A stretch of 64,000 nt of DNA from the IMG/VR virus record IMGVR_UViG_3300020421_000004; one strand, given 5' to 3'. Below are positions 155-22,979 of the stretch, one piece after another. A model generated the notes under the pieces. It had not been told where the DNA came from, did not search any database, and saw only the letters and a list, made by a program, of their open reading frames with translations. A program made the translations under genes and the position numbers. Source of the stretch: an uncultured virus (IMG/VR IMGVR_UViG_3300020421_000004) (lineage: Duplodnaviria > Heunggongvirae > Uroviricota > Caudoviricetes). The stretch's first letter is position 1. The number at the start of each line of letters is the position of its first letter.

Positions 155-172
155 TACGTCATACTAGTAGTT

Positions 173-691
173 TCACTTTTTGTGAAACAATTTAATTGGA
201 AGTATAATATGTTTGTCACGCATTTTTCGTTCAGCATGATTCTTGAAAGCAATCCCTTCGGACCACGTCAATCGTACTTTGCTGTTCTCCAAATGGTATC
301 TTCTAATACCATTCTTATTCTTGACAATTCTTTTAACTTCCAGTTTAGCACCTTTGATATCCTTTGTATTATAGATATCGTGCTTAAACAAATTTCTAAC
401 CTCTTTGGCAGCGAGTTTGTCGCCAACTTTGAAGTCAGGGAAATCATTTCGCATTCCTTTGATGTAGTCTTTATATTTAGTAGACTTGCCATCGGGCAGG
501 AACGCTATAACATGTCGACCGTCACCAGAAAGGTATCCTTTCCTACCATCAGTTGCTAGGAGTTTATCCTTCTTTGGTGGTTTTTTCGGTGTCTTTGTTT
601 TGATTTCTTTTTTGTGAAAAACAGAGTTATGCAGTTTTTCTGCAGCCTCTGTTGTAAATTTTAAATCGCATATTTTGCAATTGTATTTCAT
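173..691 (-). CDS. hypothetical protein with N-terminal C2H2 zinc finger
   Basis: CKIC-x12-H-x4-H; leaderless start TACTAG-ATG. Confidence 0.75.
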   Translation of the reverse strand: MKYNCKICDLKFTTEAAEKLHNSVFHKKEIKTKTPKKPPKKDKLLATDGRKGYLSGDGRHVIAFLPDGKSTKYKDYIKGMRNDFPDFKVGDKLAAKEVRNLFKHDIYNTKDIKGAKLEVKRIVKNKNGIRRYHLENSKVRLTWSEGIAFKNHAERKMRDKHIILPIKLFHKK

Positions 692-710
692 CTAGTATGG
701 CTTTCGCCAA

Positions 711-2315
711 TCACTCTTCTTCAAGACTTTCCTTTCTAAGAAAGTCTCCAAAAATCCTTCTAGCACTTCGACGAACACCGATTTTTTTAGTAGGTAGTTC
801 GCTTGTGCTCTCAGTGGTAGATAACGTTCTATTTCTTCTAGAGACTCGCAGAGTTTGCGAAGCACCAGAATCCATAGTCAGTCTTCCCCTATTTGCCTCA
901 ACCGTTATTTCGGCCAAAGCGTTGGAAACTGTATCTACATATTGAATGATATCCACATTCGAGTCTATACAGACTCGATAGATACCGTTATTCATTTTTG
1001 CAACCTTTTTGTCGCGACGCAGAGTCGAACTGTGAGACAAGCGTATTTTATACACGCCGTCTTCAATTTGACCATAGTCGGTTAAGGTTGAACCAGCCTG
1101 AGTACCATCAAAGTCTCCTTCTCTCCATAAAAAGAGTTCAGAGCCCATGATACCCGGCAGTTTTAGAATATGCTCCTCAAGGGGGCCATCAGTATATGTT
1201 TTCAAGAAAGCATTTGCATTCAGCAATACTTTCTTATTAGTTTCGGGGTAGATATTAGTAGCCACCTTACTTTTCAGCAAGCGAAGTAATTCTTCGTCAT
1301 CAACACCAGGATCGGTGCAGACTATATTGGCTATAGTGTATCTTCCACTTTCGTCAAAAATGCCGTTAAACATTTTGTTATTTTTTCTTTTTGAAAAAGT
1401 GTTTGTAGTTACTGTTTTGCTGTGCAAAGTTTGTTGACCGATTCTGTTTTTGGTGTTTCGGTCATTAAAAAAACCTTGACGTATTTCAAATGTGCTCATC
1501 GAACCAAAGTCTACCCACCCTGTTGAGCGGATTGGATTCTGGTTTAGTATCGCCCGTGTGGGTGCAGTATATTTGAACTTTTTAATTGCGACACAAGTAG
1601 TAAGACCGCCTTCGGTTCTAACTATGGTGTCACGATTGGTATCTGTGGCGTGGGCACGAATTCTTGGAAAACGGTTTTCATGCAGCCATTGCCTAAGTCG
1701 GTTATGGTTGCGGTAATTGTTCGTAATTCCAGTTCTGTTCCTTTGCGACGAGGTTGTAGTCTGCGCTTCTACTAAAGAGGCGCGGAAATCGGACCATTCG
1801 CTGTCCTCCTCTAAAAATCGAGGAGTCGTAGGTAAAAGGAAATATGCCTCAGAATATCCGTCATTATAAAAATTCGTAACAGTATCTAACACTGTGTTAG
1901 TGTAGATGTCGAATTTCGTCGTGATATAGAAGTATTCTTCGTCTTCATTTATTGTATAATTAGTTCGCCGGTAATAAATACCAGCACCAAGTGTACAATA
2001 GCCATCAATACCCATGTTATTACTTCTTGCCCGTGCGTATTGACGGGTGTTAGTTAAAACAAAAAAGTCTTGATACATTGGGGTAAATGTCCGTAAATCT
2101 GCTGCGTAGCCTACCAGACTTCGTCTGGTTTGATCTAGGGACTCTGTCAAAATTAGTAACTCTATTGTGTCAAATGGAGTGGTAGTTATACCGCCACTTG
2201 TCACAGTGATTTTGCCGCACTTATTGTTTTTTATAAGACTCAGAGCCTCGTCAGAGGTTATGAAGTCTAATTCATTGCGTGCGAGCATTTGTTCAATATT
2301 TTCTCTATTGTTCAT
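711..2315 (-). CDS. hypothetical protein (534 aa)
   Basis: Long ORF; TACTAG-ATG start. Confidence 0.85.
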   Translation of the reverse strand: MNNRENIEQMLARNELDFITSDEALSLIKNNKCGKITVTSGGITTTPFDTIELLILTESLDQTRRSLVGYAADLRTFTPMYQDFFVLTNTRQYARARSNNMGIDGYCTLGAGIYYRRTNYTINEDEEYFYITTKFDIYTNTVLDTVTNFYNDGYSEAYFLLPTTPRFLEEDSEWSDFRASLVEAQTTTSSQRNRTGITNNYRNHNRLRQWLHENRFPRIRAHATDTNRDTIVRTEGGLTTCVAIKKFKYTAPTRAILNQNPIRSTGWVDFGSMSTFEIRQGFFNDRNTKNRIGQQTLHSKTVTTNTFSKRKNNKMFNGIFDESGRYTIANIVCTDPGVDDEELLRLLKSKVATNIYPETNKKVLLNANAFLKTYTDGPLEEHILKLPGIMGSELFLWREGDFDGTQAGSTLTDYGQIEDGVYKIRLSHSSTLRRDKKVAKMNNGIYRVCIDSNVDIIQYVDTVSNALAEITVEANRGRLTMDSGASQTLRVSRRNRTLSTTESTSELPTKKIGVRRSARRIFGDFLRKESLEEE

Positions 2316-2333
2316 CTAGTAGCAGGCCACGAA

Positions 2334-2552
2334 TCAAGATTCGTCTTCTGCGCGTAGAACCTTAAGATGGTACTGCGGTGATTTTGCAGTTCGGTCTTTG
2401 GCTCTGGTTTCATACATGTGGACTTTATCGCCAGCGTTGAGGGTTATAGTTTCCCTAATCTGTCCGTAAAAGTGGGTCTCTGTTTTCCCACCTACGGTCT
2501 TGCGTCTTTTCCACATGCCTGTTATGTTTTCAAAAGTTCTTTTCAAAGTCAT
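2334..2552 (-). CDS. hypothetical protein
   Basis: ORF between two punctuation sites. Confidence 0.75.
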   Translation of the reverse strand: MTLKRTFENITGMWKRRKTVGGKTETHFYGQIRETITLNAGDKVHMYETRAKDRTAKSPQYHLKVLRAEDES

Positions 2553-2572
2553 AGTTATCTAGTAAGACGAAA

Positions 2573-3028
2573 CTAAAAAGTTTCATCTAAGTTTAATGGG
2601 TTACCTCTTTCGTCAGTAATCTGGCTTAGCGCCCTCTTGACGAAGTTCATTACGAGTCCTGCATTTAGTCCATCGCGGGTTCCGACATTAGTGTCGACCC
2701 ATCTGGCCTTTTCATCATACATGTTAACTTGGTTAAGATATATCTGCATCTCGGAAGGTTGCTTCCAATAGTGTAGTATTTGATATTCATCAATTACTTC
2801 GAGACTACGATCTAAACAAACGAGATATACGTTACAGTATTCGTCGTTTTGTATCAAAGTAAAAGTAGTCACCGAATTGTTAAGTTCGTCATTAAAAACG
2901 AACTCCTTTGGTGGTAGGTTTCCTTTGAGCCTTCTCGGTGTGACGTTGGCAATCGGGATGATTGGTATATCAGGCTTCTTTTCAGTCTGATTATTTAATC
3001 TGTCAACTATTCGTCTCATATTGTTCAC
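2573..3028 (-). CDS. hypothetical protein
   Basis: GTGA overlap with upstream ORF. Confidence 0.75.
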   Translation of the reverse strand: MNNMRRIVDRLNNQTEKKPDIPIIPIANVTPRRLKGNLPPKEFVFNDELNNSVTTFTLIQNDEYCNVYLVCLDRSLEVIDEYQILHYWKQPSEMQIYLNQVNMYDEKARWVDTNVGTRDGLNAGLVMNFVKRALSQITDERGNPLNLDETF

Positions 3029-3453: not shown

Positions 3454-3471
3454 ATCTAGTAAGGCTCTCGC

Positions 3472-4245: not shown

Positions 4246-4277
4246 AATAATCTCTCTAGTAAAAGAACTTGCGTTCT

Positions 4278-4883: not shown

Positions 4884-4905
4884 GTTATCTAGTAAAACGA
4901 CTTAA

Positions 4906-6354: not shown

Positions 6355-6376
6355 TTTAATCTAGTAGAGATTAGAT

Positions 6377-6831: not shown

Positions 6832-6843
6832 ATTATCTCCTTC

Positions 6844-7423
6844 TGGTGAAGAGTAAACTATATTGTTTTTTTGAGAAAGTCCAATCCGTGAAATGCATTA
6901 GCATTCGCCATTGGTCTGTGTCTTGTCTTTCAGGTAAGAATCGCTTAATTTTGCGCCGTGTTAACGGTTTGCCCTTTTATAGTGTTGAGCGGAATGTTCC
7001 GCGTCCACCTTGTGCTTTGCGGATGCAAAGTAGATGGGTTGCACCTCTAGATTATACTAGGGGTGACCTTAACAGGGTCAAAAGTAACGATGTCTTCCCT
7101 AGGCTAGAACTGCACGCTTCAGAGTGCTGTTTCTATCCTCAATCTTTCTCAAAAAAACTTACACAAATGTTAATGTTGGTTTTTAGGCCAAAATCGCAGA
7201 AAACAATTTTTGTTTAACCCTTAACAAAGGGTGTTGTTGTTTGCCGCAATCAGGTGTGCAGTGTTAACTTGCGTCACACCGGTTCCGTCAAAGTGTCATC
7301 AAGAATAAGACCAGGTCTATGGTTTTACTCTTACATGATTTGTGTCACTTTGCGGACTCGGTGTTTCGGAAGTTAACACTACGTCATTGGCCTTGCGGCC
7401 TCAGTAGTTTAATCTAACTCTTC
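6844..7423 (-). ncRNA. putative 580-nt structured RNA with K-turn, 7-bp terminal stem and ACCA tail
   Basis: 5' GAAGAGU pairs with 3' ACUCUUC+ACCA; K-turn 7379-7407; long internal stems GUAGUGUUAACUU/AAGUUAACACUGC and GUUUUUUUGAGAAAG/CUUUCUCAAAAAAAC. Confidence 0.7.
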
Positions 7424-7715
7424 TAGTGAATGGTAAGTCCTAATGTGATAATATTATGAGTCACAAGTTCTTGTGGCGATAGTTCATTAATTCTCGTTGA
7501 ACCACGTCAAGTTTATCTTGACAGTGTAATATTATCACTGGTGTCAGAACGGCTAATAATCGATGAAGACCGAAAAACATCGTTTTGCGGATGTAATGTA
7601 TCTTCACGTATTGTTAGGGCTTTGCCAGTGTAGACTGACAAGGGGTTTATGCCCGTTCAGGCTCTGACGCCATACGTCATTAGCCTCTCGGCTTCAGTGT
7701 GTGCTTTACTCATTC
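7424..7715 (-). ncRNA. putative 292-nt K-turn RNA
   Basis: GAAUGAGUAA/UUACCAUUC termini + ACUA; K-turn 7671-7701; stems GGCGUCAGAGC/GUUCUGACACC and GUGAUAAUAUUA/UAAUAUUAUCAC. Confidence 0.7.
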
Positions 7716-8023
7716 TAGTGGAAGTTTCTAAATTCTCAGTGCAACTGTTTGACGCATGTCATGCACCATTACCTGACCCCAAAGGGCAGGTTATGGCAAG
7801 GCATAGCGCATCGCGTAGCGTGCTGCATGGGGCTGGTTGTGCTGAGACGTCTCATAATCCGGTTCTTCGACTATTGACGTGAAATTTATTTTCACGGTGC
7901 AGGTGTAGAGTGCATACTCTACTCCGACGGTTCTTATCGGCGGGATAAGAAATCGGCACGTATCTATAGTCGCCGGTGTTGAGGCGTTTCGTCATTGATT
8001 TTAATCTCAGATTTTACTCTTCC
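7716..8023 (-). ncRNA. putative 308-nt K-turn RNA
   Basis: GGAAG/CUUCC termini + ACUA; K-turn 7989-8011; nested hairpins. Confidence 0.65.
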
Positions 8024-8052
8024 TAATTGTTGGTTTCTGTCTCTTGTCCATC

Positions 8053-8172
8053 TAGTGGAGGACTAAGCATTTTGATGAAATGAGATAGTTCGCCCATCAT
8101 AGGCAACCGCTATCTCAAAAAAGAGACAATAAAACAAGAACCAACATAACTTGTTAATATGCTTACTCCTCC
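8053..8172 (-). ncRNA. putative 120-nt RNA with paired ends
   Basis: GGAGGAGUAAGCAU pairs with AUGCUUAGUCCUCC (one mismatch) + ACUA. Confidence 0.6.
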
Positions 8173-8180
8173 TAGTAGTA

Positions 8181-9041
8181 TCAACCAGTGATACAATTAC
8201 ATTTTTCTGATTTACAAGTAGTACCATCTGCAAGCAGATTGTTCAATTTGTAAATATTTCCACCATCATATGAGATGGGGTTTTCTGGACATCGCCTAAC
8301 TTGTCCCATTGGGTCAACGTCTACCATCTGGAAATCTTCTCCAGGGCAGTTGTTAATTCCAAGTAGGTTGTTTAGAGCAATGTCTCCAATGTATTTTTTA
8401 CCGTCTCCGGTAATGTTCACCCACGGATATTCTGTGAATACTCGTTGGTAGTTTTCCCAAAACTTAAAACCTTGCTGCTCGTAAATCGAGAGCGGTTTGT
8501 AAATTAGGTGTTGTACAGTGTTAGGGTAATTAATAGACTCCAACATTTCTCCAAATGCATCTTCATTTTCATAAAGCCATTCAAAGACCGTTGGGGTCCA
8601 AAGTAAATTGTAATTAATTACAGTAGTAGAGATTTTACTAAGGTCCCATTCTAGGTGTTTAGTTTGTTCCATAAAATCCTGTATGCTTTCAAATCGCATA
8701 TCGTCTACTGAGATAGTCAGAACATCTAAGTTCTGAAAAAATACTTTGTCATCACCGGCTTCGAGTGTGCTCGCCACAGTTGTTACACTTGTGTTGAAAC
8801 CCAAACTTTTGGCGTAGAGTATATATTTTTTAGTCATCTCAAAAGACCCAGGAAATGGGTTCCATGTTATTGCAAAGTCAGTATAACCATTTTCCGCAGC
8901 AGTTTCAATTGCTCGTAAATAGTATGCTTCTGACTTGGTTGCATTTCTCATCTCTTTTGTAACATCTGTTGTTAAGTAGCACCCTTCGCAACTGAGTTGG
9001 CAGTTGAAACTGGGTGCGATTGAAAATATTTTTTTATTCAT
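8181..9041 (-). CDS. radical SAM superfamily protein
   Basis: CQLSCEGC (CxxxCxxC), TISVD, Cys-rich C-terminus (SPASM/twitch-like). Confidence 0.85.
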   Translation of the reverse strand: MNKKIFSIAPSFNCQLSCEGCYLTTDVTKEMRNATKSEAYYLRAIETAAENGYTDFAITWNPFPGSFEMTKKYILYAKSLGFNTSVTTVASTLEAGDDKVFFQNLDVLTISVDDMRFESIQDFMEQTKHLEWDLSKISTTVINYNLLWTPTVFEWLYENEDAFGEMLESINYPNTVQHLIYKPLSIYEQQGFKFWENYQRVFTEYPWVNITGDGKKYIGDIALNNLLGINNCPGEDFQMVDVDPMGQVRRCPENPISYDGGNIYKLNNLLADGTTCKSEKCNCITG

Positions 9042-9054
9042 TTTCTGTCTCTCC

Positions 9055-9507
9055 TAGTGAAAGAAACTATATTATTCTGCGGTTTTGGATTTATTCCAAA
9101 TGGCACATCCCGACTTATCGGGGAGGGACAAAAATTTCCTAGACAAATTTTGCTCGAGATTCGTGTTAATCAAAATAACCCAACTTTGTTGTCTCTGCGC
9201 GCCTGCGCTGTCGAGTCTCTGGCTTTACTATTGCCGATCTCGGTTATTTATTAATACGTTCCTCGTGAAAAGTTGTCGAAAATGTTTTGCCGTGCATAAG
9301 CAGAATTTTTCCAATAGTACACAACTAACGGAAAAGACAGAGAACACGATTTTATTTTTGCCGCACTTCTAATTGTATTTTTAGAAGTTCTGAAAATACG
9401 TTGTTCTCACGTAAATGTGAAATAGTGTTCTGTACTTGTTCTGTTAGTTGTTAACTCTTGGAAAAAAACGTCATTGGCATTAACTGCCTCAGTGTTTTCT
9501 TTCTTTC
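9055..9507 (-). ncRNA. putative 453-nt K-turn RNA
   Basis: GAAAGAAA/UUUCUUUC termini + ACUA; K-turn 9468-9493 followed by a long stem; no minus-strand ORF. Confidence 0.7.
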
Positions 9508-9524
9508 TAGTAGAGTTGTTACAC

Positions 9525-10256: not shown

Positions 10257-10291
10257 ATATTGGTTTCTCCTAGTAATGGCGTGAAGCCATA

Positions 10292-10975: not shown

Positions 10976-11012
10976 CTAGTAAGACCACTAAGTGGTCAGT
11001 TAAAGGTTTGAT

Positions 11013-12779: not shown

Positions 12780-12795
12780 ATTTTTGAACTCCTTC

Positions 12796-14964
12796 TGGTG
12801 ATAGATTTATGGGAAGCGGGAATTTTGGTAGCATTCTTCCCTACATATAGTCGGGTTGCATATTACCAATCGCCAGTGATAAAGTTAAAACAGTGATTCC
12901 ATAAGTTGTTTTCTGTTTTGTTTACATAATTTTAGCCGGCTGCTTAATTTAAAGCAGCAACCCAGACACCCTAAGTGTCTAGAATAGAGAATTGGTCAGC
13001 GTGCTAAACGCACCTTTCCCGTATTCTCCCTTGGGCCAGACGCCGCGACTTGCCAGGTCCCCAGTGTGGGAACTTAGTATGGCGGCTTGAAAATCTTTTA
13101 CAGCCAAATTGGCCATTGCTTTACCACGGCTCTTCCAGGTACTGGACGAACCATTTGTGTGGTATGAAGCACCATTAGTCGTAGAGCCAGAAAAGAACTA
13201 CCTACATTTTCAATGTAAATTCCTTTCTGGCTAGCGTTGTTTAGAAATGTCACATGCTGTTTAAACGCAACCAGTACACAACACCCTTGGGCGCGGCTAA
13301 CTTGGTTTGTGTTCACATGTTTGTAAAGTTCTTTTTGGGCAGTTCTAGTGAACTGTTTGCGCTGCAGGCGCTGCTGGACATGGTCCGTGCACTGAGCGTT
13401 AAGAATTCAGAGGAATTATATCCACTGATTATGGGTATTCAGTATCCTGTTTTCTAAGAAGTGGTCAGTTATCGGACTAGTTGTCGGACAACACCACGAA
13501 CTTATTCATGACCCGGGCGCGCCACTTCTCATTCTAGAGTGGTTTGCTGAGGTAGGAACTTCTTTCCATATGATTTTACATTCTTTTTCTAACGTGTCTA
13601 CTATCAGGTCAGTTGGCCAGGTTCGTAGAAGTTAGACTAATGTTTTGATGTTCTTGTTGTAAACTTATTTATCGTTTAATTCACACTTAAATTTTCGTTG
13701 TCCCAATCCACCTGGCACTTGTACATTGTACTTGTGTCATAGTCGACGGGTTTACTTCATTGTCTTGAGAATTCTTTCGAATACTCTCTGTGCAGGAGTC
13801 GTAGTTAACGTTCTTTTCTATGGTACATGTTATGTCCATAAATCGATTTTCGTTTCCACTCGTGCGCATGTATTACGCGTGTAGAGTCTTGTCCATAATC
13901 CTTCTGAAAAGGTTTTATAGGCATATTTTGTATCAATAATCATCCCGTCTCTGCCATGCATTGCAATGGCTTCGTCCGGGAGTCGTCTTCGTAGTCACCA
14001 GGGTGGGACCACAGATGTTAATCATTGATTGTAAACTATTTTATGAGTTATTCGCCAACTGTTTAGTGGCGCACGGATGTGCACTTTATCGCGAGTGAGC
14101 ACCAGGTGCTCCTTCTGGGTTACACATGTATTCCATGTTAATTCTCTGTAAACTTTTTTTGGTCGTTTAAACCGAGGTAATCACAGTACTCTCTATGGAC
14201 CAGACGGGCCATGGAGTAGAGTGGCGGTAGAATCTTTGTGCTAATAAAAGTCACATTCTACTGTAAATCATTTTCTATCGTGTTCGTATTCGGTTTTCCA
14301 CACTCCAGAGGTACCTGGTGTGAGACCGCGGTCCATTACCACGTGTCTTCAGGAGGAGAAAGAACGGTCCGCCGCTCTTTACTCACCGAGAACTTCCATG
14401 CTGCTTGGGCTCCTAAAGAAATTTCCAATTTCCTTAAGGTTTGCAAACAGAACTGCTTAGTGACCAACACCAGTGTTATAGTAACCAGGTGCTTATTCAA
14501 TTAAGCCTTGTAGAAAATGCCTTTCGTTTACATCACAGTTTACTCATTGCCTAACTTTTCTGGCAGCGATGTTGCTGCTGGAGTCAGGTCGAAGACACAG
14601 TCTTCTTTAGCCGAAGACCTAATTGTCTCCGCTTGAAGACACTATGTCTTCTTCAGAGTGTTCTACAAAAGCATAGCATGCGTTTAGTGACATTATCTCC
14701 CCTGATGTTACCATAGGAGGGATCGAAACTAATCGCGGTAGTCGTTAGACTGTTAGCGTGCTTTCTTGCGTGTTTGACAATTCGATAGGTGTTTTGACTT
14801 CTCCAATCTATGGAGAAGTGCTTTACTTAAATCGTATTGTGTGTGTTTTACGTGTATAATTAGTTTTGGGGACCCGTTAGGGTCATCCCTCCTATGGTAA
14901 CATAACGTCATTGGTTATTTACCTCAGTATTATTATCACTAATCTTCGTAATCCATAATCTATC
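12796..14964 (-). ncRNA. putative ~2.17-kb structured RNA with K-turn, paired termini and ACCA tail
   Basis: GAUAGAUUAUGG pairs with CCAUAAAUCUAUC+ACCA; K-turn 14902-14933; 19-bp perfect stem (~14707-14725 with 14885-14903); dense hairpins; no credible ORF. Confidence 0.65.
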
Positions 14965-15164
14965 TGTTGGGCGACATAAGTTTTGCAATTGCTTATGCCG
15001 CACCGTTGGTGCAAGTGTATGCCTTTACATCAAGTCGAGGATAGCCAGCCAAAGCAGAGTTGTGAGGCTCTGCTTATTCTGCTCCAAATTCCCGACAAAT
15101 TTATCCTTCGGGCAACTGATCAAGTTACTTTTACTTGGTGTAAAAGTTTGTGTTATACTCTTGC
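14965..15164 (-). ncRNA. putative 200-nt structured RNA
   Basis: Bounded by ACUA|G and AACA|G; several hairpins; no minus-strand ORF. Confidence 0.45.
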
Positions 15165-15207
15165 TAGTAAGGGTGATACGGTTAGTATCCCCAATTGGAT
15201 GTGCGTC

Positions 15208-15420
15208 TCAACCTCTGTGGATTGATTCGCCGCCGGTAGCACCGTCACCTTCGTACTTGATGTGAGTTTGGGTAACCTTTGCATCAGTCATTCCCAAAGC
15301 CCCTTTCAAGAACTTGGTTAGGTCTAAACATTGTTGGTCTGGAAGACCATCAATCTTTACCGTCATTTCCCCTGTGTCGGGGTCATAGTAAATATCTACT
15401 TGCTGACTCATCAGACCCAA
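15208..15420 (-). CDS. DUF2997-like protein
   Basis: DPDTGEMTVKIDG...QCLDLTKFL..ALG; usual partner of DUF1257/Ycf46. Confidence 0.75.
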   Translation of the reverse strand: MGLMSQQVDIYYDPDTGEMTVKIDGLPDQQCLDLTKFLKGALGMTDAKVTQTHIKYEGDGATGGESIHRG

Positions 15421-15875
15421 CCCCCTGAGGTGTTGTTCTTTTTATTGCCAGAAGTAAATCCGCCTGTTAAGCGGATATGCTTTACTTTCTTTTCTTTGCC
15501 ATCCTTCATAATCACAGCGTCTTTTACGTCGCCGTTCATTTTCATGCCTGCCAACTGTGGGTTGCCTTTGAGTGCTTTCTTAACAACACTCTTGACATAT
15601 GATGTATAGACAGGATTCATGATCGTTTGGATCTTCTTGGCATCGCCATAGCCGGGGTTGTATTGCTTTACAGCATACGTTCCGTCTTGCTTTGCTTTCA
15701 GACCAATATCATGTTTACCTGATTGACGAATAACGTAATCGCATCTTTCGCGGATTCCATTACATATTTCGTTCTTCAGTATCGTCGCATTAGGCATAGC
15801 CTCTTGTAACGCTTCTTCTATACAATCATTGTTTTCTACAGTCAGGCTGGTTTTGCCTTCCATTTTGTGTGACAT
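15411..15875 (-). CDS. DUF1257 (Ycf35-like) protein
   Basis: MSH...EAL...DYVIR...DIGL...DGTY. Confidence 0.75.
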   Translation of the reverse strand: MSHKMEGKTSLTVENNDCIEEALQEAMPNATILKNEICNGIRERCDYVIRQSGKHDIGLKAKQDGTYAVKQYNPGYGDAKKIQTIMNPVYTSYVKSVVKKALKGNPQLAGMKMNGDVKDAVIMKDGKEKKVKHIRLTGGFTSGNKKNNTSGGWV

Positions 15876-16055
15876 ATTTTTTCTTTCTCCTTACCCTTTT
15901 CGGGTCTAATAACCAAAAAAAAAATGCCCCCAACACTCACGATTCGATAATCGTAAACATTGGGAGCCTGTTTTAAACTTGGTGTTTAATTCTAGTAAAC
16001 GTAGGTTGCGGGCAGAATATTATATTCCATCCGCAACTTTACGTTATTTGTGATA

Positions 16056-17003: not shown

Positions 17004-17411
17004 AATAGTCTCTCTCTAGTAATCCCCTATAGGGATAAAGTATGTATTAGTAATATATTATACTAATAGCCTTTATATTTATCATTATTCTTTGTATTCA
17101 TAAGTGTTCATTCTAATGCCGCCTGCAAATGTTACAGGTTCATTATTGTACAATTCTTTCATTGCGTGTACACTTTGTGCCATACTTGTTCTTAATGGTA
17201 TTGCCATCTATTAACTAGGATTGCAATTTACCTAGTTCACTTATACCTCTCTTGGTCACTATTTCAAGTCTCTAGAGGAAGATTTTCCACAGCCGTAAAT
17301 GCTTCACGACAAGTATGCTTACGTCAAGACAGTAAACAGGGACTGGGCGCTTATTTTGCGCGGTCTATCTAAAAAAAATGACATTGATTATTTTACTAAT
17401 CAATGCCGTTC

Positions 17412-17540
17412 TATCTGATAAGATTGGTAGTCTTATCTCAATGAATCCTTCACTGAATAAATTCAGTTCGAGACCCAAAGCGTTTATCCGGAAAGATATC
17501 CGGATAAATCGTCTTCCCAATAAAGGAAAGATAATCTATC
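17412..17540 (-). ncRNA. duplicated ~125-nt structured RNA, copy 1
   Basis: Near-identical to 21471-21595; paired ends; UUUAUCCGGA/UCCGGAUAAA hairpin. Confidence 0.65.
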
Positions 17541-17641
17541 TGATGTAAGTGCTCTGGGGTTATCGTTATCAGGTTGTACAGTCCTTTCCTTTCCCCCCGC
17601 GAAGAGAACCTGGCCCCACATAGTGGTAGCGAGGTTACCTC

Positions 17642-17678
17642 CCTTACATTATTATAACGTTTCATTTTATACCGGTAT
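17642..17678 (-). promoter_or_regulatory. conserved promoter-like element, copy 1
   Basis: ATACCGGTAT-N8-ACGTTATAATAATGTAAGG; extra palindrome at 17696-17705. Confidence 0.75.
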
Positions 17679-17731
17679 ATGGCATTATGCTTTCAATACC
17701 GGTATAACTCTGTCTAGTAGTGGGATATCGC

Positions 17732-17950: not shown

Positions 17951-17995
17951 CTAATAACGGCTCACTTAGAGATGTCCCTAAGCAGCGTTATGGTT

Positions 17996-18214: not shown

Positions 18215-18231
18215 CTAGTAAAAGAAAGATT

Positions 18232-18588: not shown

Positions 18589-18639
18589 CTAATGAGCGCA
18601 CCTAGAGTATACCCTAAGCCGCATCATAACTTTTTGGTG

Positions 18640-19359
18640 TTATGCACACATAGCCTTGTCACTCCACCATTCTCGTGAAGTGCGAAGAGCCGTTGTGAAC
18701 TCTTCAGGCGACATATTAGTGTCTGTGCCTCCATCATCGCCAAAATAATTGGCACATAATGTCTCAGGATGTATAGGCATCTCGCCTACCACTGGACTAG
18801 CATTAATACTAATGATTTCCCAATCAGCGTGAACGTCAGGGGTGTTGTCATTAGACTCTGCTAGTACATCCTTTCGGTATAGTACAATGTCTGTTTGTCG
18901 TGCAGGAACTTTCTGGGCTCCTTTTGCACCAATTTGCTTTCTTGGCAATTCGCCTTTCCTTCGTGATTTAAATGAACCCGAGAGTTCATCATCTTCTTTC
19001 AGTTGGGCGACGCCGGAGTAAAATCCCTCACTTGGAACACGGACGGTTATTACGCCGTCACGATATCCTGGGGTTTGTTCTTCCCAATGGGTTTCAACCA
19101 AACGCACCACCTCCGGAAGTTGTCCAGCATAGTAACTGAACGGGCTTTCTTTGGTTTGGCGTAGGACGAATCCATTGGCAATAATTTTCACATTATTCAT
19201 TTTATCTCTCCTAGTATCGTCCTCCGTTTCTGGAGGCGCGTTCAGTAATAGATCTAATTCTATTCTGTTATTGCATTTCTTACAAATGCGTGTGTTATCT
19301 TTGTTAGACCATATGATTCCTCTTCGGGAACATAGGTCGCAAGTGTCAACGACTTTCAT
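18640..19359 (-). CDS. DUF3228-like protein with in-frame N-terminal zinc finger (second start at 19200)
   Basis: SRRKGELP, DIVLY, DWEIISINA, PIHPETL..N..GG, EWW motifs. Confidence 0.7.
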   Translation of the reverse strand: MKVVDTCDLCSRRGIIWSNKDNTRICKKCNNRIELDLLLNAPPETEDDTRRDKMNNVKIIANGFVLRQTKESPFSYYAGQLPEVVRLVETHWEEQTPGYRDGVITVRVPSEGFYSGVAQLKEDDELSGSFKSRRKGELPRKQIGAKGAQKVPARQTDIVLYRKDVLAESNDNTPDVHADWEIISINASPVVGEMPIHPETLCANYFGDDGGTDTNMSPEEFTTALRTSREWWSDKAMCA

Positions 19360-19418
19360 CTAATACCGCACCGGAACGTGTCCCGGTGGGTTTTAAGTCT
19401 GCAAGTTATCGTGTTCTG

Positions 19419-20180
19419 TTACCAACAATTACTGAGTTTGTTCATTATATCATTGTAATCAAAACTATACGATGCTCTTGCGGTAGTCCATCCTTCACCA
19501 TTTACTAATCCGATGGGTGCCATTCTTGTCGCCTCAGAGACGTCCGTATCGCAACCACTATTATCGGGTCCGAAAGGTTCGTCGCTGACGTATATGCTTA
19601 CGGTTCTATGATCGACAACACTGTCGTTCATTCCCAACATATAATAGCAGCCATTAGTGACTCTACATTCCGGCACGCTTGCACTGGTGTGGAAAACCCA
19701 TAGTGAGTCTTCGTTCCAGACTTCGTTCATGCGGAACGAGAATGTCATTGCTGCTGACATCATTAATTGTTCATCAGTATAGTTTGGTGGTGGTGTCCAT
19801 AGCCCATAACTTCGGGTCCGAGTGCTTGCTTCGACGAATCTGTCGTCTGCTGCATAGCCTTCATGTTCCTTCCATTCTTGGGGGCTAACTAAGGTTTTAT
19901 CCACAGTCGTTCCATTTGGTAAGTTTATTCTAACATCCAAAAGGAGACAAGTGTCTATTATACCATAGTCATTTGTTGTGTTATTAGAAAGATAGCAACT
20001 TACGTCGTATTTGAAATACAGCATATTGCCGTCTTCTTCTACTTCGTTTTCTGCACCTGTATTTGTTACGTATCCTATTGGCAGCAACATCATTAAGATA
20101 ATTGCCGATATAAAATATGCATTAAAATATCTGTGTCCTGTTACTTTCTTTCTTATTGTATTAATTTTTTCAAAAATCAT
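19419..20180 (-). CDS. membrane-anchored hypothetical protein (start moved out of the tRNA)
   Basis: N-terminal hydrophobic helix; TAATAG-AT-ATG at 20180. Confidence 0.75.
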   Translation of the reverse strand: MIFEKINTIRKKVTGHRYFNAYFISAIILMMLLPIGYVTNTGAENEVEEDGNMLYFKYDVSCYLSNNTTNDYGIIDTCLLLDVRINLPNGTTVDKTLVSPQEWKEHEGYAADDRFVEASTRTRSYGLWTPPPNYTDEQLMMSAAMTFSFRMNEVWNEDSLWVFHTSASVPECRVTNGCYYMLGMNDSVVDHRTVSIYVSDEPFGPDNSGCDTDVSEATRMAPIGLVNGEGWTTARASYSFDYNDIMNKLSNCW

Positions 20181-20192
20181 ATCTATTAATGG

Positions 20193-20269
20193 TGGCGGGC
20201 CTAGCAGGGTTCGAACCTGCGACATTCCGGTTAAGAGCCGGACGCTCTACCTGACTAAGCCATAGGCCC
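20193..20269 (-). tRNA. tRNA-Lys(CUU) with encoded CCA
   Basis: Acceptor GGGCCUA/UAGGCCC, anticodon arm UCCGG-CUCUUAA-CCGGA, T-loop GGUUCGAAC, G-CCA end. Confidence 0.97.
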
Positions 20270-20316
20270 ATTCCATCTATTATGCGCCCCGTAGGACGAC
20301 TTTTGGTTTTTCCTAT

Positions 20317-20634
20317 TCAGTCACCGCCCCAGAAGGGGCCTTTGGTAACCGAACATGCTGCAGGAGAGTCCTCAGTAACCGTGATATAGAGATCGTAGTG
20401 TAACGCACCACGACCCCCGCACCAGGCGTCGGCTTTCCATGCTAACTCATCTGCGACAGACTCAGCATCCTCCTTCGTCCCGCAAATAACGGAACAGAAG
20501 GTAACGACTGCGTCGCTTTCTTCAAAGAAGAGGCCACCAGCGGCAGCCACCTCCTTAGGGCAGAAATAAGAGTCCGGCCCGTAGCAGATTAGTTCAATTT
20601 TATAGTTTAGTTTTTTTTCAGTCATATCTGTCAA
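20317..20634 (-). CDS. hypothetical protein flanked by 16-bp direct repeats
   Basis: ORF; TGCGCCCCGTAGGACG at 20283 and 20651. Confidence 0.65.
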   Translation of the reverse strand: MTDMTEKKLNYKIELICYGPDSYFCPKEVAAAGGLFFEESDAVVTFCSVICGTKEDAESVADELAWKADAWCGGRGALHYDLYITVTEDSPAACSVTKGPFWGGD

Positions 20635-20674
20635 CTACCTATATAATAAGTGCGCCCCGTAGGACGGCTTATAT

Positions 20675-20884
20675 TTATTCTTCACTCCACTGTTCTGCGA
20701 GTGCTTTGACTTGTTTCCAAGTTGTTTTCGCTGTGCCAAGTGGCTCCATCGAACTAAGTATAACATCGTCGTCGTCCAGTATGTCTTCTACTGCTTTACG
20801 CCAACGAATATTTTTCTCAGCAATCTTTAATAATTTGATTATCTTTGCTTGTTCATCTGTTTGTGTCATCATTTCTTCTGTCAT
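20675..20884 (-). CDS. hypothetical protein
   Basis: ORF after ATCA|G. Confidence 0.65.
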   Translation of the reverse strand: MTEEMMTQTDEQAKIIKLLKIAEKNIRWRKAVEDILDDDDVILSSMEPLGTAKTTWKQVKALAEQWSEE

Positions 20885-21470
20885 GTGTATCTGATAAAAA
20901 AAAAGACGCCACAGTTGTTACACCGTGACGCCTTTCCTTTTGTTTCTTCCCAACTTGAAATTAATCAAGCCCTTCCATGAGCAGTAGATTCAACTTGCAT
21001 TGCTGAATTTCCCACTCGCCTAAGATGTAGATGTGTAATTCCTATCCGGAGCAGGGGGCCGATCTTATGCGGCTGGTCCCAACATCTGTCATGTTATGGT
21101 ATCGTCAGTCTTACAGAGACAAAATCTGTAAGTCCTATTCGGTCATAGAGAAACCGCCGGGGTAGGTGTTGTGCACCTCCATAGCAGTTTTTGTTTATCC
21201 TCTCTCAAAATGATACTATAACAATAGCATCTAATATCTATCTGATACATAGCAGTCTGAACCTTGCTATGAAAATTATATTTTCCCATGGCCTCTCGGC
21301 TCCTGTATCATGGGAGGCATATTAGTTAGTCTATCGGACATTTGCCTTTTTTTGATTTCGTTTATCATTACCACCCTGGCAACCCAAGACACCTTAGAGC
21401 ACACTTTCAAAATGCTCTAAGGTGATTCAGACTTGGTTACTGTTGGTATGTGGTTTGTACCCGTAGGTTC

Positions 21471-21595
21471 TAATAGGATTGGTAGTCCCATCTCAATGAA
21501 TCCTTCGCTGAATAAATTCAGTTCGAGACTCAAAGCGTTTATCCGGAAAGATATCCGGATAAATCGTCTTCCCAATAAAGGAAAGATAATCTATC
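21471..21595 (-). ncRNA. duplicated ~125-nt structured RNA, copy 2
   Basis: Near-identical to 17412-17540; bounded by AACA|G and AUUA|G. Confidence 0.65.
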
Positions 21596-21664
21596 TGTTG
21601 ACACGTTTATGGCTTAGGTGTGTGAAGCCTATTGGGTTTCTTACCGCGCCCAAGCGTGAGACCC

Positions 21665-21943
21665 TCAAAAGAGATAGTCGTCGCCGAAGTCATCTTTATG
21701 TCTCTTCCAAGATTTCTGCTCTGACACATACTTTCTTTTCTGATTCAGTAAAAACTTATCTTTGTTCGATAATCCCTTTCTTGGGTTTGCCTTCAGCCAC
21801 CTTGCGGCAGCCTCTTCGTCGGCCCATCTCTCTCCGTGAATGAAGGATGCCTTAATTAAAAGGCGCTCCTGTTCCACGGTCAAATCTGACCGAGCATGCA
21901 ATCTCGTGTAGTCTTCCAATGTAATACTATTAATATCAAACAT
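21665..21943 (-). CDS. hypothetical protein
   Basis: TAATAG-GAGA leader. Confidence 0.75.
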   Translation of the reverse strand: MFDINSITLEDYTRLHARSDLTVEQERLLIKASFIHGERWADEEAAARWLKANPRKGLSNKDKFLLNQKRKYVSEQKSWKRHKDDFGDDYLF

Positions 21944-21953
21944 CTTAATCTCC

Positions 21954-22455
21954 TATTAACCGTTGGGAGGCGGCGAACCGCCCCTCCATTGGTTTTTATT
22001 ACTCAGTTGGTTTATAGTCTGGTTTGAGTAGTCCAGACACGATGTATTCATCTCAAATGCTAAAATAAGACACTCCTCGAGGTTCCTCACAAAGTCCATC
22101 CTGCGCCTTAAAGCGGTCAGGTTGTTAATGACAATGCGTATAAGTTCACTTCCAAAAGGAAGGTACTCGAAGTTCTGTTTTTAAACTTAAATTGCTAATC
22201 GCAGTTCAACTGTACATTTCTGCACCGTCCATCCCCCCTTACGGGCTTTTGCTGCTCTTGGCCTTATTTTAACTCGAATCATACGGGATGATAGAGTTTT
22301 TGTAGTGGGTTTTGACACCCACTACGGAATCTCACGAACCGGGCCGAAGCCCGAAGTAAATGCCGCCTAAGCAGCGAACGTGAGTTGGCAGCCTGTGAGG
22401 GCTGCCGGCATCTAAAAATGCCTTTTCTGTTAAAGAGGGTGCTTTCCCTCCTTAC
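21954..22455 (-). ncRNA. putative ~500-nt structured RNA with H-type pseudoknot
   Basis: Directly downstream of promoter copy 2; GC-rich hairpins; 13-bp long-range stem; pseudoknot 22000-22038. Confidence 0.55.
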
Positions 22456-22486
22456 ATTATTATAACGTATTAACCGATACCGGTAT
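22450..22486 (-). promoter_or_regulatory. conserved promoter-like element, copy 2
   Basis: Same motif and spacing as copy 1. Confidence 0.75.
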
Positions 22487-22594
22487 GTTACAATAATCTC
22501 TTACTGGTAGCCATCTAGGAATAATCCCCTAGTGGCTCTATGTCCGCTTTAGTAGGTGCGTCGTCCTAGGCGTTTCAGGCCATATTATCGCGGC

Positions 22595-22726
22595 CTAACC
22601 TCCACAGTTTATGCAAATAGATGAACCCCACGCTAGGCTGTGTATTCGTCCTTTACAACGAATACATCTAGGCCAACCGTCATTAAGTTCATCTTCTTTG
22701 CTATTCAATTCTTTTATTGTTATCAT
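22595..22726 (-). CDS. small zinc-ribbon protein (43 aa)
   Basis: MITIKEL...CIRC...CINCGG*; GGAGGAG SD. Confidence 0.6.
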   Translation of the reverse strand: MITIKELNSKEDELNDGWPRCIRCKGRIHSLAWGSSICINCGG

Positions 22727-22788
22727 ATTTATTTCTCCTCCCTTTCGGGACTAATAACCAAAGGTGCGCCCGAAGACGTCTTTTTATT

Positions 22789-22908: not shown

Positions 22909-22941
22909 TGTTTCACCTTTTGGTTGTGTAAGGAGTTCTCT

Positions 22942-22978
22942 CCTTACATTATTATAACGTATGAACCGATACCGGTAT
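22942..22978 (-). promoter_or_regulatory. conserved promoter-like element, copy 3
   Basis: Same motif and spacing as copy 1. Confidence 0.75.
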
Positions 22979-22979
22979 C

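What the first reader, a model, noticed from the sequence alone, without database searches (positions are those of the whole stretch)
164..22755. Transcript punctuation code: stem + ANYA|G between almost every gene and RNA of a 23-kb block
Seen: on the minus strand, ACUA|G (variants ACCA, AUUA, AAUA, AUCA, AACA|G) has its G at 164, 692, 2316, 2559, 3456, 4256, 4889, 6361, 6843, 7423, 7715, 8023, 8052, 8172, 9054, 9507, 10270, 10976, 12795, 14964, 15164, 15992, 17016, 17951, 18215, 18589, 19211, 19360, 20183, 20277, 20891, 21953 and 22751. Most sites lie 0-3 nt after a stem, e.g. GUUUCAC/GUGAAAC, UGGC-GAAA-GCCA, AGAUGAAAC/GUUUCGUCU, CGACUUAA-GUAA-UUAAGUCG, GACCAC/GUGGUC. The G is followed directly by AUG, a short SD leader, or a non-coding unit whose 5' G pairs with the C just before the next ACUA. 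Inference: long transcripts are cut at A^G, giving RNAs with a 5' G and a tRNA-like 4-nt 3' overhang, analogous to mitochondrial tRNA punctuation. Alternatives are a terminate/re-initiate signal for the viral RNA polymerase, or integron-like cassette junctions. Caveat: bare ACTAG also occurs inside CDSs (e.g. ~4588, ~5443), so structure must matter.
Basis: partly seen in the sequence, partly recalled or inferred. Interest (0 to 1): 0.92.

Follow-up and report, generated by a model that had tools for sequence, protein, structure and literature searches.

The report
Helix-plus-AYUA|G gene punctuation, archaeal virus
In a marine archaeal virus, almost every gene, several structured non-coding RNAs and a tRNA in one 23-kb gene train are separated by a small RNA helix followed by the letters A-Y-U-A-G, a mark kept across the virus family that most likely tells where a long RNA is divided into separate, nearly leaderless messages.

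Summary
All 33 listed positions carry A[ACU][CU]A|G on the minus strand, and 28 of 33 sit 0-3 nt after a local hairpin or a long-range 5'/3' closing helix. The composite mark is about 9-fold enriched over shuffles and over the other strand and the 23-64 kb region. The window is a magrovirus group D-like virus of marine group II archaea (thermosome, RNA polymerase subunits A and H, family B DNA polymerase). In relatives with 60-78% identical ATPase the mark stands before 138 of 182 genes; stems change completely and covary, while the motif and the stem-to-motif spacing stay fixed. G.U pairs and long-range helices place the signal in RNA. No TATA/BRE-like element precedes the sites; three separate TATA-like repeats exist. 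Putative host genomes lack the mark. Gene cassettes are reshuffled at it. Five non-coding units share a K-turn-like motif 12-37 nt after the G. Best reading (about 0.5): endonucleolytic punctuation of long transcripts, giving leaderless or 5'-SD mRNAs and closed ncRNAs. Main rival (about 0.28): helix-dependent stop plus initiator-type restart by a virus-modified polymerase. No RNA ends could be mapped (contigs only), so cleavage is inferred. I found no published description.

The parts
22751..22755 (-). junction AUUA|G; hairpin 4 nt upstream; followed by 5' hairpin + SD and a 43-aa Zn-ribbon ORF (22595-22726)
21953..21957 (-). junction AAUA|G after a UUCG hairpin (-20 kcal/mol); SD leader, AUG 10 nt on; strain breakpoint
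20891..20895 (-). junction AUCA|G after hairpin + U9; AUG 7 nt on
20277..20281 (-). junction AAUA|G after a hairpin; opens the tRNA-Lys unit (8-nt leader)
20183..20187 (-). junction AAUA|G closing the tRNA unit (leader/trailer helix 5 bp, offset 0); AUG 4 nt on
19360..19364 (-). junction AUUA|G after a hairpin; G directly before AUG of a Zn-ribbon unit
19211..19215 (-). junction ACUA|G after a hairpin, lying in frame inside ORF 18640-19359; SD + AUG at 19200
18589..18593 (-). junction AUUA|G after a hairpin; G directly before AUG
18215..18219 (-). junction ACUA|G after a hairpin; G directly before AUG
17951..17955 (-). junction AUUA|G after a hairpin; G directly before AUG
17016..17020 (-). 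junction ACUA|G after a hairpin; GAGAGAG leader, AUG 13 nt on
15992..15996 (-). listed ACUA|G without a helix within 3 nt (weak site)
15906..15910 (-). unlisted junction AUUA|G after hairpin + U-run; 5' hairpin + SD before gene 15411-15875; paralogue of the 22751 junction
   Evidence: (family D13)
15164..15168 (-). junction ACUA|G after a hairpin; opens a 200-nt non-coding unit
14964..14968 (-). junction AACA|G after a hairpin; 5' end of the 2,169-nt RNA
12795..12799 (-). junction ACCA|G closing the 2,169-nt RNA (8 contiguous pairs, covarying in relatives); SD leader of the AAA ATPase gene
10976..10980 (-). junction ACUA|G after the hairpin GACCAC/GUGGUC; G directly before AUG; orthologous junction compared in 28 loci
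10270..10274 (-). junction ACUA|G after a hairpin; SD leader, AUG 14 nt on
9507..9511 (-). junction ACUA|G after a hairpin; 5' end of the 453-nt K-turn RNA
9054..9058 (-). junction ACUA|G closing the 453-nt RNA (8 bp); SD leader
8172..8176 (-). junction ACUA|G after a hairpin; 5' end of the 120-nt RNA
8052..8056 (-). junction ACUA|G closing the 120-nt RNA; followed by a 29-nt spacer unit
8023..8027 (-). junction AUUA|G without an upstream helix; 5' end of the 308-nt K-turn RNA
7715..7719 (-). junction ACUA|G closing the 308-nt RNA; 5' end of the 292-nt K-turn RNA
7423..7427 (-). junction ACUA|G closing the 292-nt RNA; 5' end of the 580-nt K-turn RNA
6843..6847 (-). junction ACCA|G closing the 580-nt RNA (7 bp, covarying); SD leader
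6361..6365 (-). junction ACUA|G after a bulged hairpin; AUG 7 nt on
4889..4893 (-). junction ACUA|G after a GUAA hairpin + UUUU; AUG 6 nt on
4256..4260 (-). junction ACUA|G after a GCAA hairpin; AUG 11 nt on
3456..3460 (-). junction ACUA|G after a GAGA hairpin; AUG 3 nt on
2559..2563 (-). junction ACUA|G after a hairpin; AUG 7 nt on
2316..2320 (-). junction ACUA|G after a hairpin; G directly before AUG
692..696 (-). junction ACUA|G after a GAAA hairpin; G directly before AUG
164..168 (-). junction ACUA|G after a hairpin; AUG 2 nt on
6844..8023 (-). three tandem K-turn ncRNA units (308, 292, 580 nt), each closed by its 5' G-strand and the strand just before the next motif
8053..8172 (-). 120-nt structured ncRNA unit (z = -4.7)
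9055..9507 (-). 453-nt K-turn ncRNA unit
12796..14964 (-). 2,169-nt non-coding unit with a K-turn motif 37 nt from the 5' G; conserved ends, interior not alignable between relatives
21954..22440 (-). structured ncRNA downstream of promoter-like repeat 2 (z = -5.5)
20193..20269 (-). tRNA-Lys(CUU), a unit of the array
22936..22983 (-). promoter-like repeat 1: palindrome ATACCGGTAT, 9 nt, TATA-like TTATAATAAT
22444..22491 (-). promoter-like repeat 2
17636..17683 (-). promoter-like repeat 3 (75% to repeat 2)
24286..24525 (+). RNA polymerase subunit H (Rpb5 C-terminal domain)
25718..30406 (+). RNA polymerase subunit A'+A'' fusion, archaeal type

Best explanation
The mark 'RNA helix, 0-1 free nucleotide, A-Y-U-A, G' is an RNA-level boundary signal of a magrovirus group D-like archaeal virus. 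A few long transcripts, probably started at the three TATA-like repeats, run through the minus-strand gene train. An endonuclease that reads the foot of a helix plus the single-stranded AYUA|G cuts them at each mark.

Every cut makes two ends at once. One is a 3' end protected by the helix with a 4-5 nt tail. The other is a 5' end that begins 1 nt before AUG (a leaderless-type mRNA), begins with the SD sequence, or begins the purine-rich 5' strand of a non-coding RNA that pairs with the strand just before the next mark.

The enzyme is unknown. Because putative host genes lack the mark, it is either virus-encoded or a host enzyme with few natural substrates. Because the same short mark ends every cassette, it also serves as a joint at which cassettes are exchanged between relatives.

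Shown: the anatomy, its enrichment, its conservation with covarying stems, its RNA-level character, and the cassette shuffling. Inferred: polycistronic precursors, cleavage, the cut position, and the enzyme.
For: 1. Enrichment and strand or block specificity.
2. Family-wide conservation. In 13 of the 51 related loci (chosen for length and non-redundancy), 113/182 sense ORFs have A[CT]TAG and 25 more have another ANYAG within 30 nt upstream, against 14/142 and 10/142 for spurious antisense ORFs.
3. At the orthologous ATPase-to-next-gene junction, 26 of 28 distinct loci have a hairpin, usually 1 free nt (0-2), then A[CT]TA|G. Stem sequences differ completely between lineages, and one pair differs by an A-U to G.U change. 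The slack (0-24 nt) lies between stop codon and stem, not between stem and motif.
4. RNA level. G.U:A.C inside stems is 19:6 at boundaries against 22:25 at in-CDS motifs. In 6 ncRNA units and the tRNA unit of the window, and in 23/29 K-turn RNAs of the family (controls 10/87), the helix before the motif is a long-range 5'/3' closure ending exactly at the motif; this cannot form in DNA.
5. No conserved position upstream of -9 in 151 boundary sites, so no TATA/BRE. Separate TATA-like repeats occur 3 times in the block and are conserved in L011 and L025 on the sense strand only.
6. The ncRNA arrays have no T-runs between units, so their 3' ends need a cut.
7. G-to-AUG distances cluster at 1, 6-7 and 10-14 nt and avoid 4, 5, 8 and 9, as expected if the mark sets the mRNA 5' end.
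8. The stop codon precedes the mark in 101/103 junctions, and the motif's TAG is never the stop.
Against: No RNA end was seen. The laid runs are contigs, which cannot show starts, ends or precursors, and RNA libraries can hold DNA.

The mark is confined to one gene block. The virus carries its own RNA polymerase subunits A and H. Both facts would also suit a class-specific initiation signal.

Y at -2 and A at -1 followed by G resembles the Y(-1)R(+1) initiator rule of Pol II-type polymerases (recalled), if transcription starts at the A.

At site 19211 in the window, and at its homologue in L011, the upstream Zn-ribbon ORF has no stop before the mark, so a cut there would leave a non-stop message.

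No candidate nuclease was found among the block's proteins. The one archaeal enzyme checked in print, aCPSF1, cuts C^A and not a U-for-C variant (PMC3553952, passages), which fits only a minority of the motifs.
Confidence: 0.5

Rival explanations
1. Stop-start transcription. The helix with its U/A-rich tail terminates the transcript of the upstream unit, and AYUAG is an initiator-type minimal promoter at which a virus-modified polymerase (viral A and H subunits in a host core, or a fuller viral enzyme) starts the next RNA. This would be a composite terminator/promoter cassette like the PeSLs of T4-type phages.
For: The mark is specific to one gene block. Viral RpoA and RpoH lie next to the block. 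The host lacks the mark: 12/271 ORFs in 409 kb of Poseidoniales loci. Position -2 is always Y and -1 always A, then G and mostly A, like a Y-R initiator (recalled). Units begin purine-rich (GRAGAG), ncRNAs included. A few marks follow T-runs (20891, 4889, 15906). Two ORFs read through the mark. Cassettes shuffle as at PeSLs (PMC4122927 abstract).
Against: Nothing is conserved upstream of -9, and no multisubunit polymerase is known to start from a 5-7 nt element alone next to a terminator (recalled). The stem-to-motif spacing is fixed while other spacings are slack, which two independent signals would not need. Most tails are not oligo-U, the archaeal terminator signal (recalled). At tandem ncRNAs the 'terminator' would be a helix whose arms lie 120-2,169 nt apart. 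No RpoB was seen among the ORFs scanned in the window.
Confidence: 0.28
2. The marks are first of all DNA recombination sites, integron-like cassette junctions used by a recombinase, and any RNA role is secondary.
For: Cassette order differs between the window and L011, with breakpoints 0-7 nt from sites 21953, 20891, 20183, 19360, 19211, 7423 and 4256. 9 of 48 HSP ends lie within 10 nt of a site, against 3.1% expected. All cassettes have one orientation. A serine recombinase lies at 37751-38497.
Against: The conserved letters lie outside the stem and unpaired, unlike attC core sites (recalled). Stems are 5-10 bp with a G.U excess on the sense strand. Long-range closures cannot be DNA structures. 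The tight link to AUG or SD has no DNA-level reason. No tyrosine integrase was found in the window. Homologous exchange at a shared ~10-nt mark explains the mosaics.
Confidence: 0.05
3. The mark is only a translation signal (a substitute ribosome-binding site or a re-initiation signal) within uncut polycistronic mRNA.
For: The G stands 1 nt before AUG at 47/182 genes of relatives and 8 genes in the window, without an SD.
Against: The same mark bounds ncRNAs and the tRNA unit. Its TAG is never the upstream stop codon. An internal AUG without an SD directly after a helix has no known way to recruit archaeal ribosomes unless it is at a 5' end (recalled).
Confidence: 0.03

Closest known systems
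PeSL (promoter-early stem-loop) cassettes in hyperplastic regions of T4-type phages (PMC2839356, search listing; PMC4122927, abstract read)
   Same: A small composite stem-loop-plus-signal element stands between many small accessory genes of one orientation. Relatives gain, lose and swap genes at it.
   Different: PeSLs carry a sigma-70 early promoter. Here nothing is conserved upstream of -9, the setting is archaeal, the mark also bounds ncRNAs and a tRNA, and long-range RNA helices can replace the hairpin.
Intercistronic processing of polycistronic transcripts: phage T7 RNase III sites and tRNA punctuation of animal mitochondria (both recalled, not read here)
   Same: Long transcripts are divided at structured RNA elements between genes, leaving 3' hairpins and short or absent 5' leaders.
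   Different: T7 sites are long irregular duplexes cut inside the stem, and mitochondrial junctions are whole tRNAs. Here short, freely varying stems are followed by a fixed single-stranded AYUA|G, and only 1 tRNA is present.
Hairpin-dependent 3'-end formation of Mimiviridae mRNAs (PMC4402537, abstract read)
   Same: A virus with a Pol II-like polymerase ends its transcripts at hairpins that an enzyme cleaves.
   Different: There the palindromes themselves are cut and poly(A) is added, and no fixed motif or coupling to the next start is described in the abstract. Here the motif follows the stem and abuts the next AUG.
Histone pre-mRNA 3' processing by CPSF-73 (recalled) and its archaeal orthologue aCPSF1 (PMC3553952, abstract and passages read)
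   Same: The geometry matches: a stem, then a cut 4-5 nt downstream in an A/C-rich single strand (two marks here read ACCA). aCPSF1 is universal in archaea and prefers single-stranded CA.
   Different: The histone stem is sequence-conserved and a U7 snRNP measures the site. Pab-aCPSF1 cuts C^A and not the U variant, whereas position -2 here is U in 128 of 151 sites.
Hairpin promoters of phage N4 virion RNA polymerase (PMC4496689, search listing only)
   Same: A hairpin directly upstream of the RNA start.
   Different: N4 hairpins are DNA structures read by a single-subunit polymerase. Here G.U pairs and closures spanning 120-2,169 nt argue for RNA, and the viral polymerase genes are of the multisubunit archaeal type.
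Integron attC sites (recalled)
   Same: Structured elements at the 3' end of each promoterless, co-oriented cassette, with cassette shuffling.
   Different: See the membership test: the conserved letters lie outside the stem, and no IntI-type integrase is in the window.

Membership tests
PeSL cassettes (T4-type phages) | stem-loop directly followed by a host sigma-70 early promoter (-35/-10) | tested here: not met
   The stem-loop is present, but no position upstream of -9 is conserved in 151 sites. The genes are archaeal-type.
PeSL cassettes (T4-type phages) | flanks variable accessory genes and coincides with indel or swap breakpoints between relatives | tested here: met
   Window against L011: unit order is shuffled, and 9/48 HSP ends lie within 10 nt of a mark.
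tRNA punctuation (mitochondria) | junctions are tRNAs or tRNA-shaped elements cut by RNase P and RNase Z | tested here: not met
   One tRNA in 64 kb by ARAGORN and Rfam. The junction helices are single hairpins or closures, not cloverleaves.
RNase III intercistronic sites (T7) | about 20-bp irregular duplex cut within the stem | tested here: not met
   Stems are 5-11 bp, and the conserved element is single-stranded, 3' of the stem.
Integron attC | conserved core sites paired within an imperfect palindrome; IntI tyrosine integrase and attI nearby | tested here: not met
   The motif lies outside the stem. Only a serine recombinase was found in the window.
Archaeal BRE/TATA promoter | TATA box about 26 nt and BRE about 33 nt upstream of the start | tested here: not met
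   Information content is at most 0.09 bit at every position from -45 to -10 at the marks. By contrast, three TATA-like repeats exist elsewhere in the block.
N4-type hairpin promoter | DNA hairpin with conserved stem/loop, read by a T7-like virion RNA polymerase | tested here: not met
   Stems vary freely. G.U excess. Long-range closures. No single-subunit polymerase hit among the ORFs scanned.
Box C/D sRNA (for the non-coding units) | terminal C (RUGAUGA) and D (CUGA) boxes plus guide regions | tested here: not met
   Only an internal CUGA-hairpin-AAUGACG (D'/C'-like K-turn) is present. Rfam gives nothing at gathering score, and the only snoRNA hit scores 27 bits against a cut-off of 70.
Magrovirus group D (host element) | DNAP B, thermosome, resolvase and RNA polymerase A of archaeal type on one element (PMC5434244, passage) | tested here: met
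   All four are present in the window. No phylogeny was made.

The most novel reading that the evidence does not exclude
A dedicated RNA punctuation code, 'helix foot + AYUA|G', is read by an undescribed endonuclease that is either viral or a host beta-CASP/RNase Z-type enzyme re-aimed by the virus. It turns a few long TATA-driven transcripts of an archaeal virus into some 35 ready-made products: leaderless mRNAs, SD-first mRNAs, K-turn ncRNAs closed like tRNA acceptor ends, and a tRNA. The same mark doubles as the joint at which gene and RNA cassettes are exchanged. This would be the first transcript-punctuation system described in Archaea or their viruses.
Probability: 0.45. Interest if true: 0.9.

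Novelty: new variant of a known kind. Interest (0 to 1): 0.78.

Why it matters
Almost nothing is known about how archaeal viruses, and uncultured marine group II archaea in particular, make and shape their RNAs. No archaeal virus has been characterised with its own RNA polymerase subunits; that statement is recalled, and the group D mention in PMC5434244 is the only one I found. A fixed, family-wide boundary mark gives an exact, testable prediction for RNA 5' and 3' ends in marine metatranscriptomes. It explains how SD-less genes inside a dense gene train can be translated, namely as leaderless messages. It also allows genes and at least five K-turn-bearing ncRNAs, about 7 kb of the 23-kb block, to be annotated precisely. 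If a cut is confirmed, the enzyme would be a new structure-plus-sequence-guided RNase. If initiation is confirmed, it would be a new minimal promoter type for an archaeal-type polymerase. Either way the mark is also the seam along which these abundant ocean viruses exchange accessory cassettes.

Tried and rejected
**RNA ends.** The look-up of sequencing runs found 6 RNA-library runs from 4 studies holding 19-40% of the sampled words. All are kept as contigs. Read laying on X15, X16, X18 and the DNA run X6 gave no table of molecule starts or ends. Contig ends, depth differences between bins (such as high depth over 21676-22342 in X18) and the uncovered stretch 13005-14338 cannot be used as evidence. 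Adapter-tagged contig ends (12775, 6645, 18729) are not at marks. Contigs bridging marks occur in the RNA libraries but may be DNA.

**Whole genome.** None is held. Records behind the loci are not held, so the ends of the block and the rest of the polymerase genes could not be seen.

**Alternative genetic code for the ORF-free stretches.** Rejected, because all three stop codons are frequent in all frames.

**Known RNA families.** Only the tRNA was found.

**IMG/VR.** No close relative of the ATPase. The two RNAP relatives at 34% identity (L001, L002) show no such mark in the 24.8 kb held.

**Search for a nuclease or specificity factor.** PHROGs, Pfam and NCBIfam on the ORFs, PDB sequence searches and the ESM Atlas (scores 0.75-0.81, no lead) all gave nothing. 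An AlphaFold model of the conserved 244-aa protein upstream of rpoA (pLDDT 66) had only meaningless Foldseek hits (TM <= 0.2). The 194-aa neighbour has too few full-length relatives.

**BHB (splicing endonuclease) geometry and self-cleaving ribozymes.** Considered by eye and rejected: the two ANYA tails would face each other rather than being staggered, and the element is too small.

**Other.** The first genome-contig scan with the viral thermosome found nothing; a scan with an alignment of cellular thermosomes succeeded. A z-score script timed out, and strand folding was used instead.

Full report
**What the window is.**
The window carries archaeal-type genes:
- a thermosome subunit (NF041082, 501 bits, above its cut-off of 450);
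- an RNA polymerase A'+A'' fusion (NF006336, 509 bits; Pfam Rpb1 domains 1-5);
- next to it an Rpb5-C/RpoH gene (24286-24525) and an RNase H gene;
- a family B DNA polymerase, nearest to those of haloarchaeal tailed viruses at 23% identity;
- a serine recombinase;
- tail-spike-like and baseplate-like proteins.

This gene set is the one Philosof et al. describe for 'magrovirus group D', of unsettled nature at the time (PMC5434244, passages). The cellular thermosomes nearest to the viral one are from Poseidoniales MAGs. I therefore treat the window as a tailed virus of marine group II archaea. No RpoB-like domain appeared among the ORFs scanned. No whole genome is held.

**The observation.**
All 33 positions carry A[ACU][CU]A|G on the minus strand, and the wider consensus is yUACUAGA.

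Bare ACTAG is common: 98 on the minus strand and 52 on the plus strand of the window, and 17 of the 41 in the block lie inside CDSs. Context removes the noise:
- YTACTAG occurs at 0.13/kb in CDSs and 1.91/kb outside.
- ACTAG precedes 12/24 block genes against 2/56 other genes (p = 3e-6).
- The composite 'YAYTAGR with a hairpin ending <=3 nt upstream' occurs 17 times on the block's sense strand, 2 times on its antisense strand, 6 and 5 times on the strands of 23-64 kb, and 1.9 times on average (max 6) in 30 dinucleotide shuffles.

Twenty-eight of the 33 sites follow a helix within 3 nt: 22 local hairpins and 6 long-range closures. Seven of 32 units have at least 5 contiguous pairs between the strand beginning at G(+1) and the strand ending just before the next motif, against 2.6% at random; an eighth unit (21953) reaches 5 only through G.U pairs with a T-run and was dropped. 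These seven are exactly the purely non-coding units and the tRNA unit. MFE folds of units 7715 and 8172 pair nucleotide 1 with the base before ACUA and leave the tail free (z = -4.9 and -4.7).

**The non-coding units.**
The stretches without ORFs are non-coding under any stop-codon reassignment, and Rfam knows none of them. Five units (starting at 8023, 7715, 7423, 9507 and 14964) share CUGA-[covarying hairpin]-AAUGACG. By its layout (GA directly 5' of a helix, and a 3-nt bulge plus GA 3' of it) this looks like a K-turn of the D'/C' kind; that reading is mine, from recalled K-turn rules.

Over the window and all loci the pattern occurs 47 times on the sense strand and once on the antisense strand. 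It nearly always lies 11-19 nt after a mark, and 37 nt after it in the large RNA.

Of 29 distinct family members, 23 have a closure of at least 5 bp ending exactly at a downstream mark, against 10/87 shifted controls. The 6 misses are the large RNA, for which my script picked an internal ATTAG (4 cases), and loci that end too soon (2 cases). RNAalifold on five orthologues of the 580-nt type predicts the terminal stem and the K-turn hairpin, with compensatory changes in 26 of 64 pairs overall.

The 2.2-kb unit upstream of the ATPase keeps its ends in relatives. These are the 5' site ccA[CA]CA|GAUAGA.. and the 3' sequence ..CUAUC A[CU]CA|GA(A)GGAG, with a GAUAGA/UCUAUC to GAUAGG/CCUAUC double change. 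Its interior cannot be aligned even with a relative whose ATPase is 94% identical.

**Conservation.**
One metagenome scan with the AAA ATPase gave 51 loci at 40-100% identity.
- In 13 of them, 138 of 182 sense ORFs have an ANYAG within 30 nt upstream (113 A[CT]TAG plus 25 other variants). ATTAG dominates in the more distant lineages.
- G-to-AUG distances cluster at 1 nt (47 genes), 6-7 nt (17) and 10-14 nt (54). None are at 4, 5, 8 or 9 nt.
- A lineage at 40% identity shows hairpin + CAUAG + AUG at some genes.
- At the orthologous ATPase-to-next-gene junction, 26 of 28 distinct sequences read stop codon, 0-24 nt, hairpin, usually 1 nt, A[CT]TA|G. Stems are unrelated between lineages.
- The stop codon lies upstream of the mark in 101 of 103 junctions, and the motif's TAG is never the stop (48 further sites were set aside for lack of a nearby upstream ORF).

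**At what level it acts.**
- Inside strict hairpins (at least 5 Watson-Crick pairs; 54/150 boundary sites against 73/766 in-CDS motifs), G.U outnumbers A.C 19:6. At in-CDS motifs the ratio is 22:25. This points to the sense RNA.
- Long-range closures of 120-2,169 nt in place of hairpins cannot be DNA structures.
- The information profile of 151 sites is flat from -45 to -10, so there is no TATA or BRE.
- A different, clearly promoter-like repeat (the palindrome ATACCGGTAT, 9 nt, then TTATAATAAT) occurs three times in the block. It is conserved in L011 (2 copies) and L025 (1 copy), always on the sense strand.
- In 409 kb around thermosome genes of 23 Poseidoniales MAGs, only 12/271 ORFs have A[CT]TAG within 30 nt upstream and 2/271 have the motif abutting the AUG (first-ATG ORF calls). 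The mark is therefore the virus's own.

**Cassettes.**
Against L011 the unit order differs. There, the tRNA unit is followed directly by the 149-nt Zn-ribbon unit (96% identical), and that by the homologue of the window's gene 20675-20884. Nine of 48 HSP ends lie within 10 nt of a mark, against 3.1% expected. Joints and loose ends of strain contigs at 21953, 20283, 20897 and 9512 agree.

**Reading.**
I take the mark to be a composite RNA signal (helix foot plus AYUA|G) at which long transcripts are cut (about 0.5). This one assumption explains:
- the fixed stem-to-motif spacing;
- the equivalence of hairpins and closures;
- the missing promoters and terminators inside ncRNA arrays;
- the start-codon spacing, which gives leaderless or SD-first messages;
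- the tRNA unit with its leader/trailer helix.

The main rival (about 0.28) is helix-dependent termination followed by an initiator-type restart by a polymerase that carries the viral A and H subunits. It is favoured by the block specificity, the virus-specificity, the Y-A-G resemblance to a Y(-1)R(+1) initiator, and two ORFs that read through a mark. It is disfavoured by the lack of any upstream element and by the fixed spacing. A primary role as a recombination site (0.05) or as a pure translation signal (0.03) fits poorly.

The cut position inside the motif is not fixed by sequence. Y^A would fit general nuclease preferences, and Pab-aCPSF1 cuts C^A but not U^A (PMC3553952, passages).

**What is in print.**
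Searches for magrovirus together with RNA polymerase/thermosome, intergenic/stem-loop/non-coding/leaderless, or hairpin/promoter/transcript listed no paper that describes such a mark. The 2025 Poseidoniales virus paper contains none of the words hairpin, intergenic, promoter or non-coding. Supplements were not read.

Earlier notes of this scan report the same kind of mark in four other genomes, with similar readings and likewise without RNA-end data. They are not independent evidence.

Noticed in passing
window 24286-30406 (+): Operon-like row: RpoH (Rpb5-C), RNase H, a conserved 244-aa protein of unknown fold, and an RpoA'+A'' fusion. The same order occurs in the distant relative L001 (84, 141, 213 and 1609 aa). 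No RpoB-like domain was found among the ORFs scanned in the window.
   Followed up: partly
window 8181-9041 (-): The 286-aa protein conserved in L011, L021 and L025 has an invariant CX3CX2C near its N-terminus and C-terminal cysteine clusters. It looks like a radical SAM/SPASM-type enzyme, though Pfam and PDB sequence searches did not name it.
   Followed up: partly
window about 13100-14700 (-), inside the 2.2-kb RNA: The interior of the large non-coding unit cannot be aligned with relatives whose flanking genes are 94-95% identical, while both ends are conserved. This is a hypervariable core of unknown meaning.
   Followed up: partly
window 17414-17545 and 21469-21600: A 132-nt direct repeat (95%) lies within two different non-coding stretches. 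One of them is downstream of promoter-like repeat 3.
   Followed up: no
window about 33875-33905 and about 35010-35040 (-): Two copies of a roughly 29-nt element that holds CTAGGT and a TATA-like TCATTATAAA. Each lies about 20-50 nt upstream of the start of a replication-block gene. This is a different, canonical-looking archaeal promoter class; CTAGG-like words recur before other genes outside the block.
   Followed up: no
window 19212-19360 (-) and L011 2480-2629: A 149-nt unit encodes a CxxC...CxxC Zn-ribbon peptide with no stop codon before the junction. In the window it runs in frame into the next gene (239-aa ORF); in L011 it stops 18 nt past the mark.
   Followed up: partly
window 20193-20269 (-) and L011 about 2400-2475: The viral tRNA-Lys(CUU) encodes its CCA in the window but not in L011. 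In both, an 8-nt leader pairs with the trailer just before the next mark.
   Followed up: partly
window 8024-8052 (-): A 29-nt mini-unit between two marks (AUG..AGAGACA..AACCAACA) is conserved in several relatives ahead of a K-turn RNA. It has no helix, and its role is unknown.
   Followed up: no
runs X15 and X17: Two oligo-dT RNA-seq libraries hold 33-40% of the sampled words of the block. This could reflect A-rich sense RNA, A-tailing or DNA carry-over; it cannot be told from contigs.
   Followed up: no
window 55933-57486 (-): The viral thermosome forms a 517-aa clade (51-94% identical among metagenome proteins) that is distinct from 540-aa cellular Poseidoniales thermosomes (45-47% identical).
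   Followed up: partly
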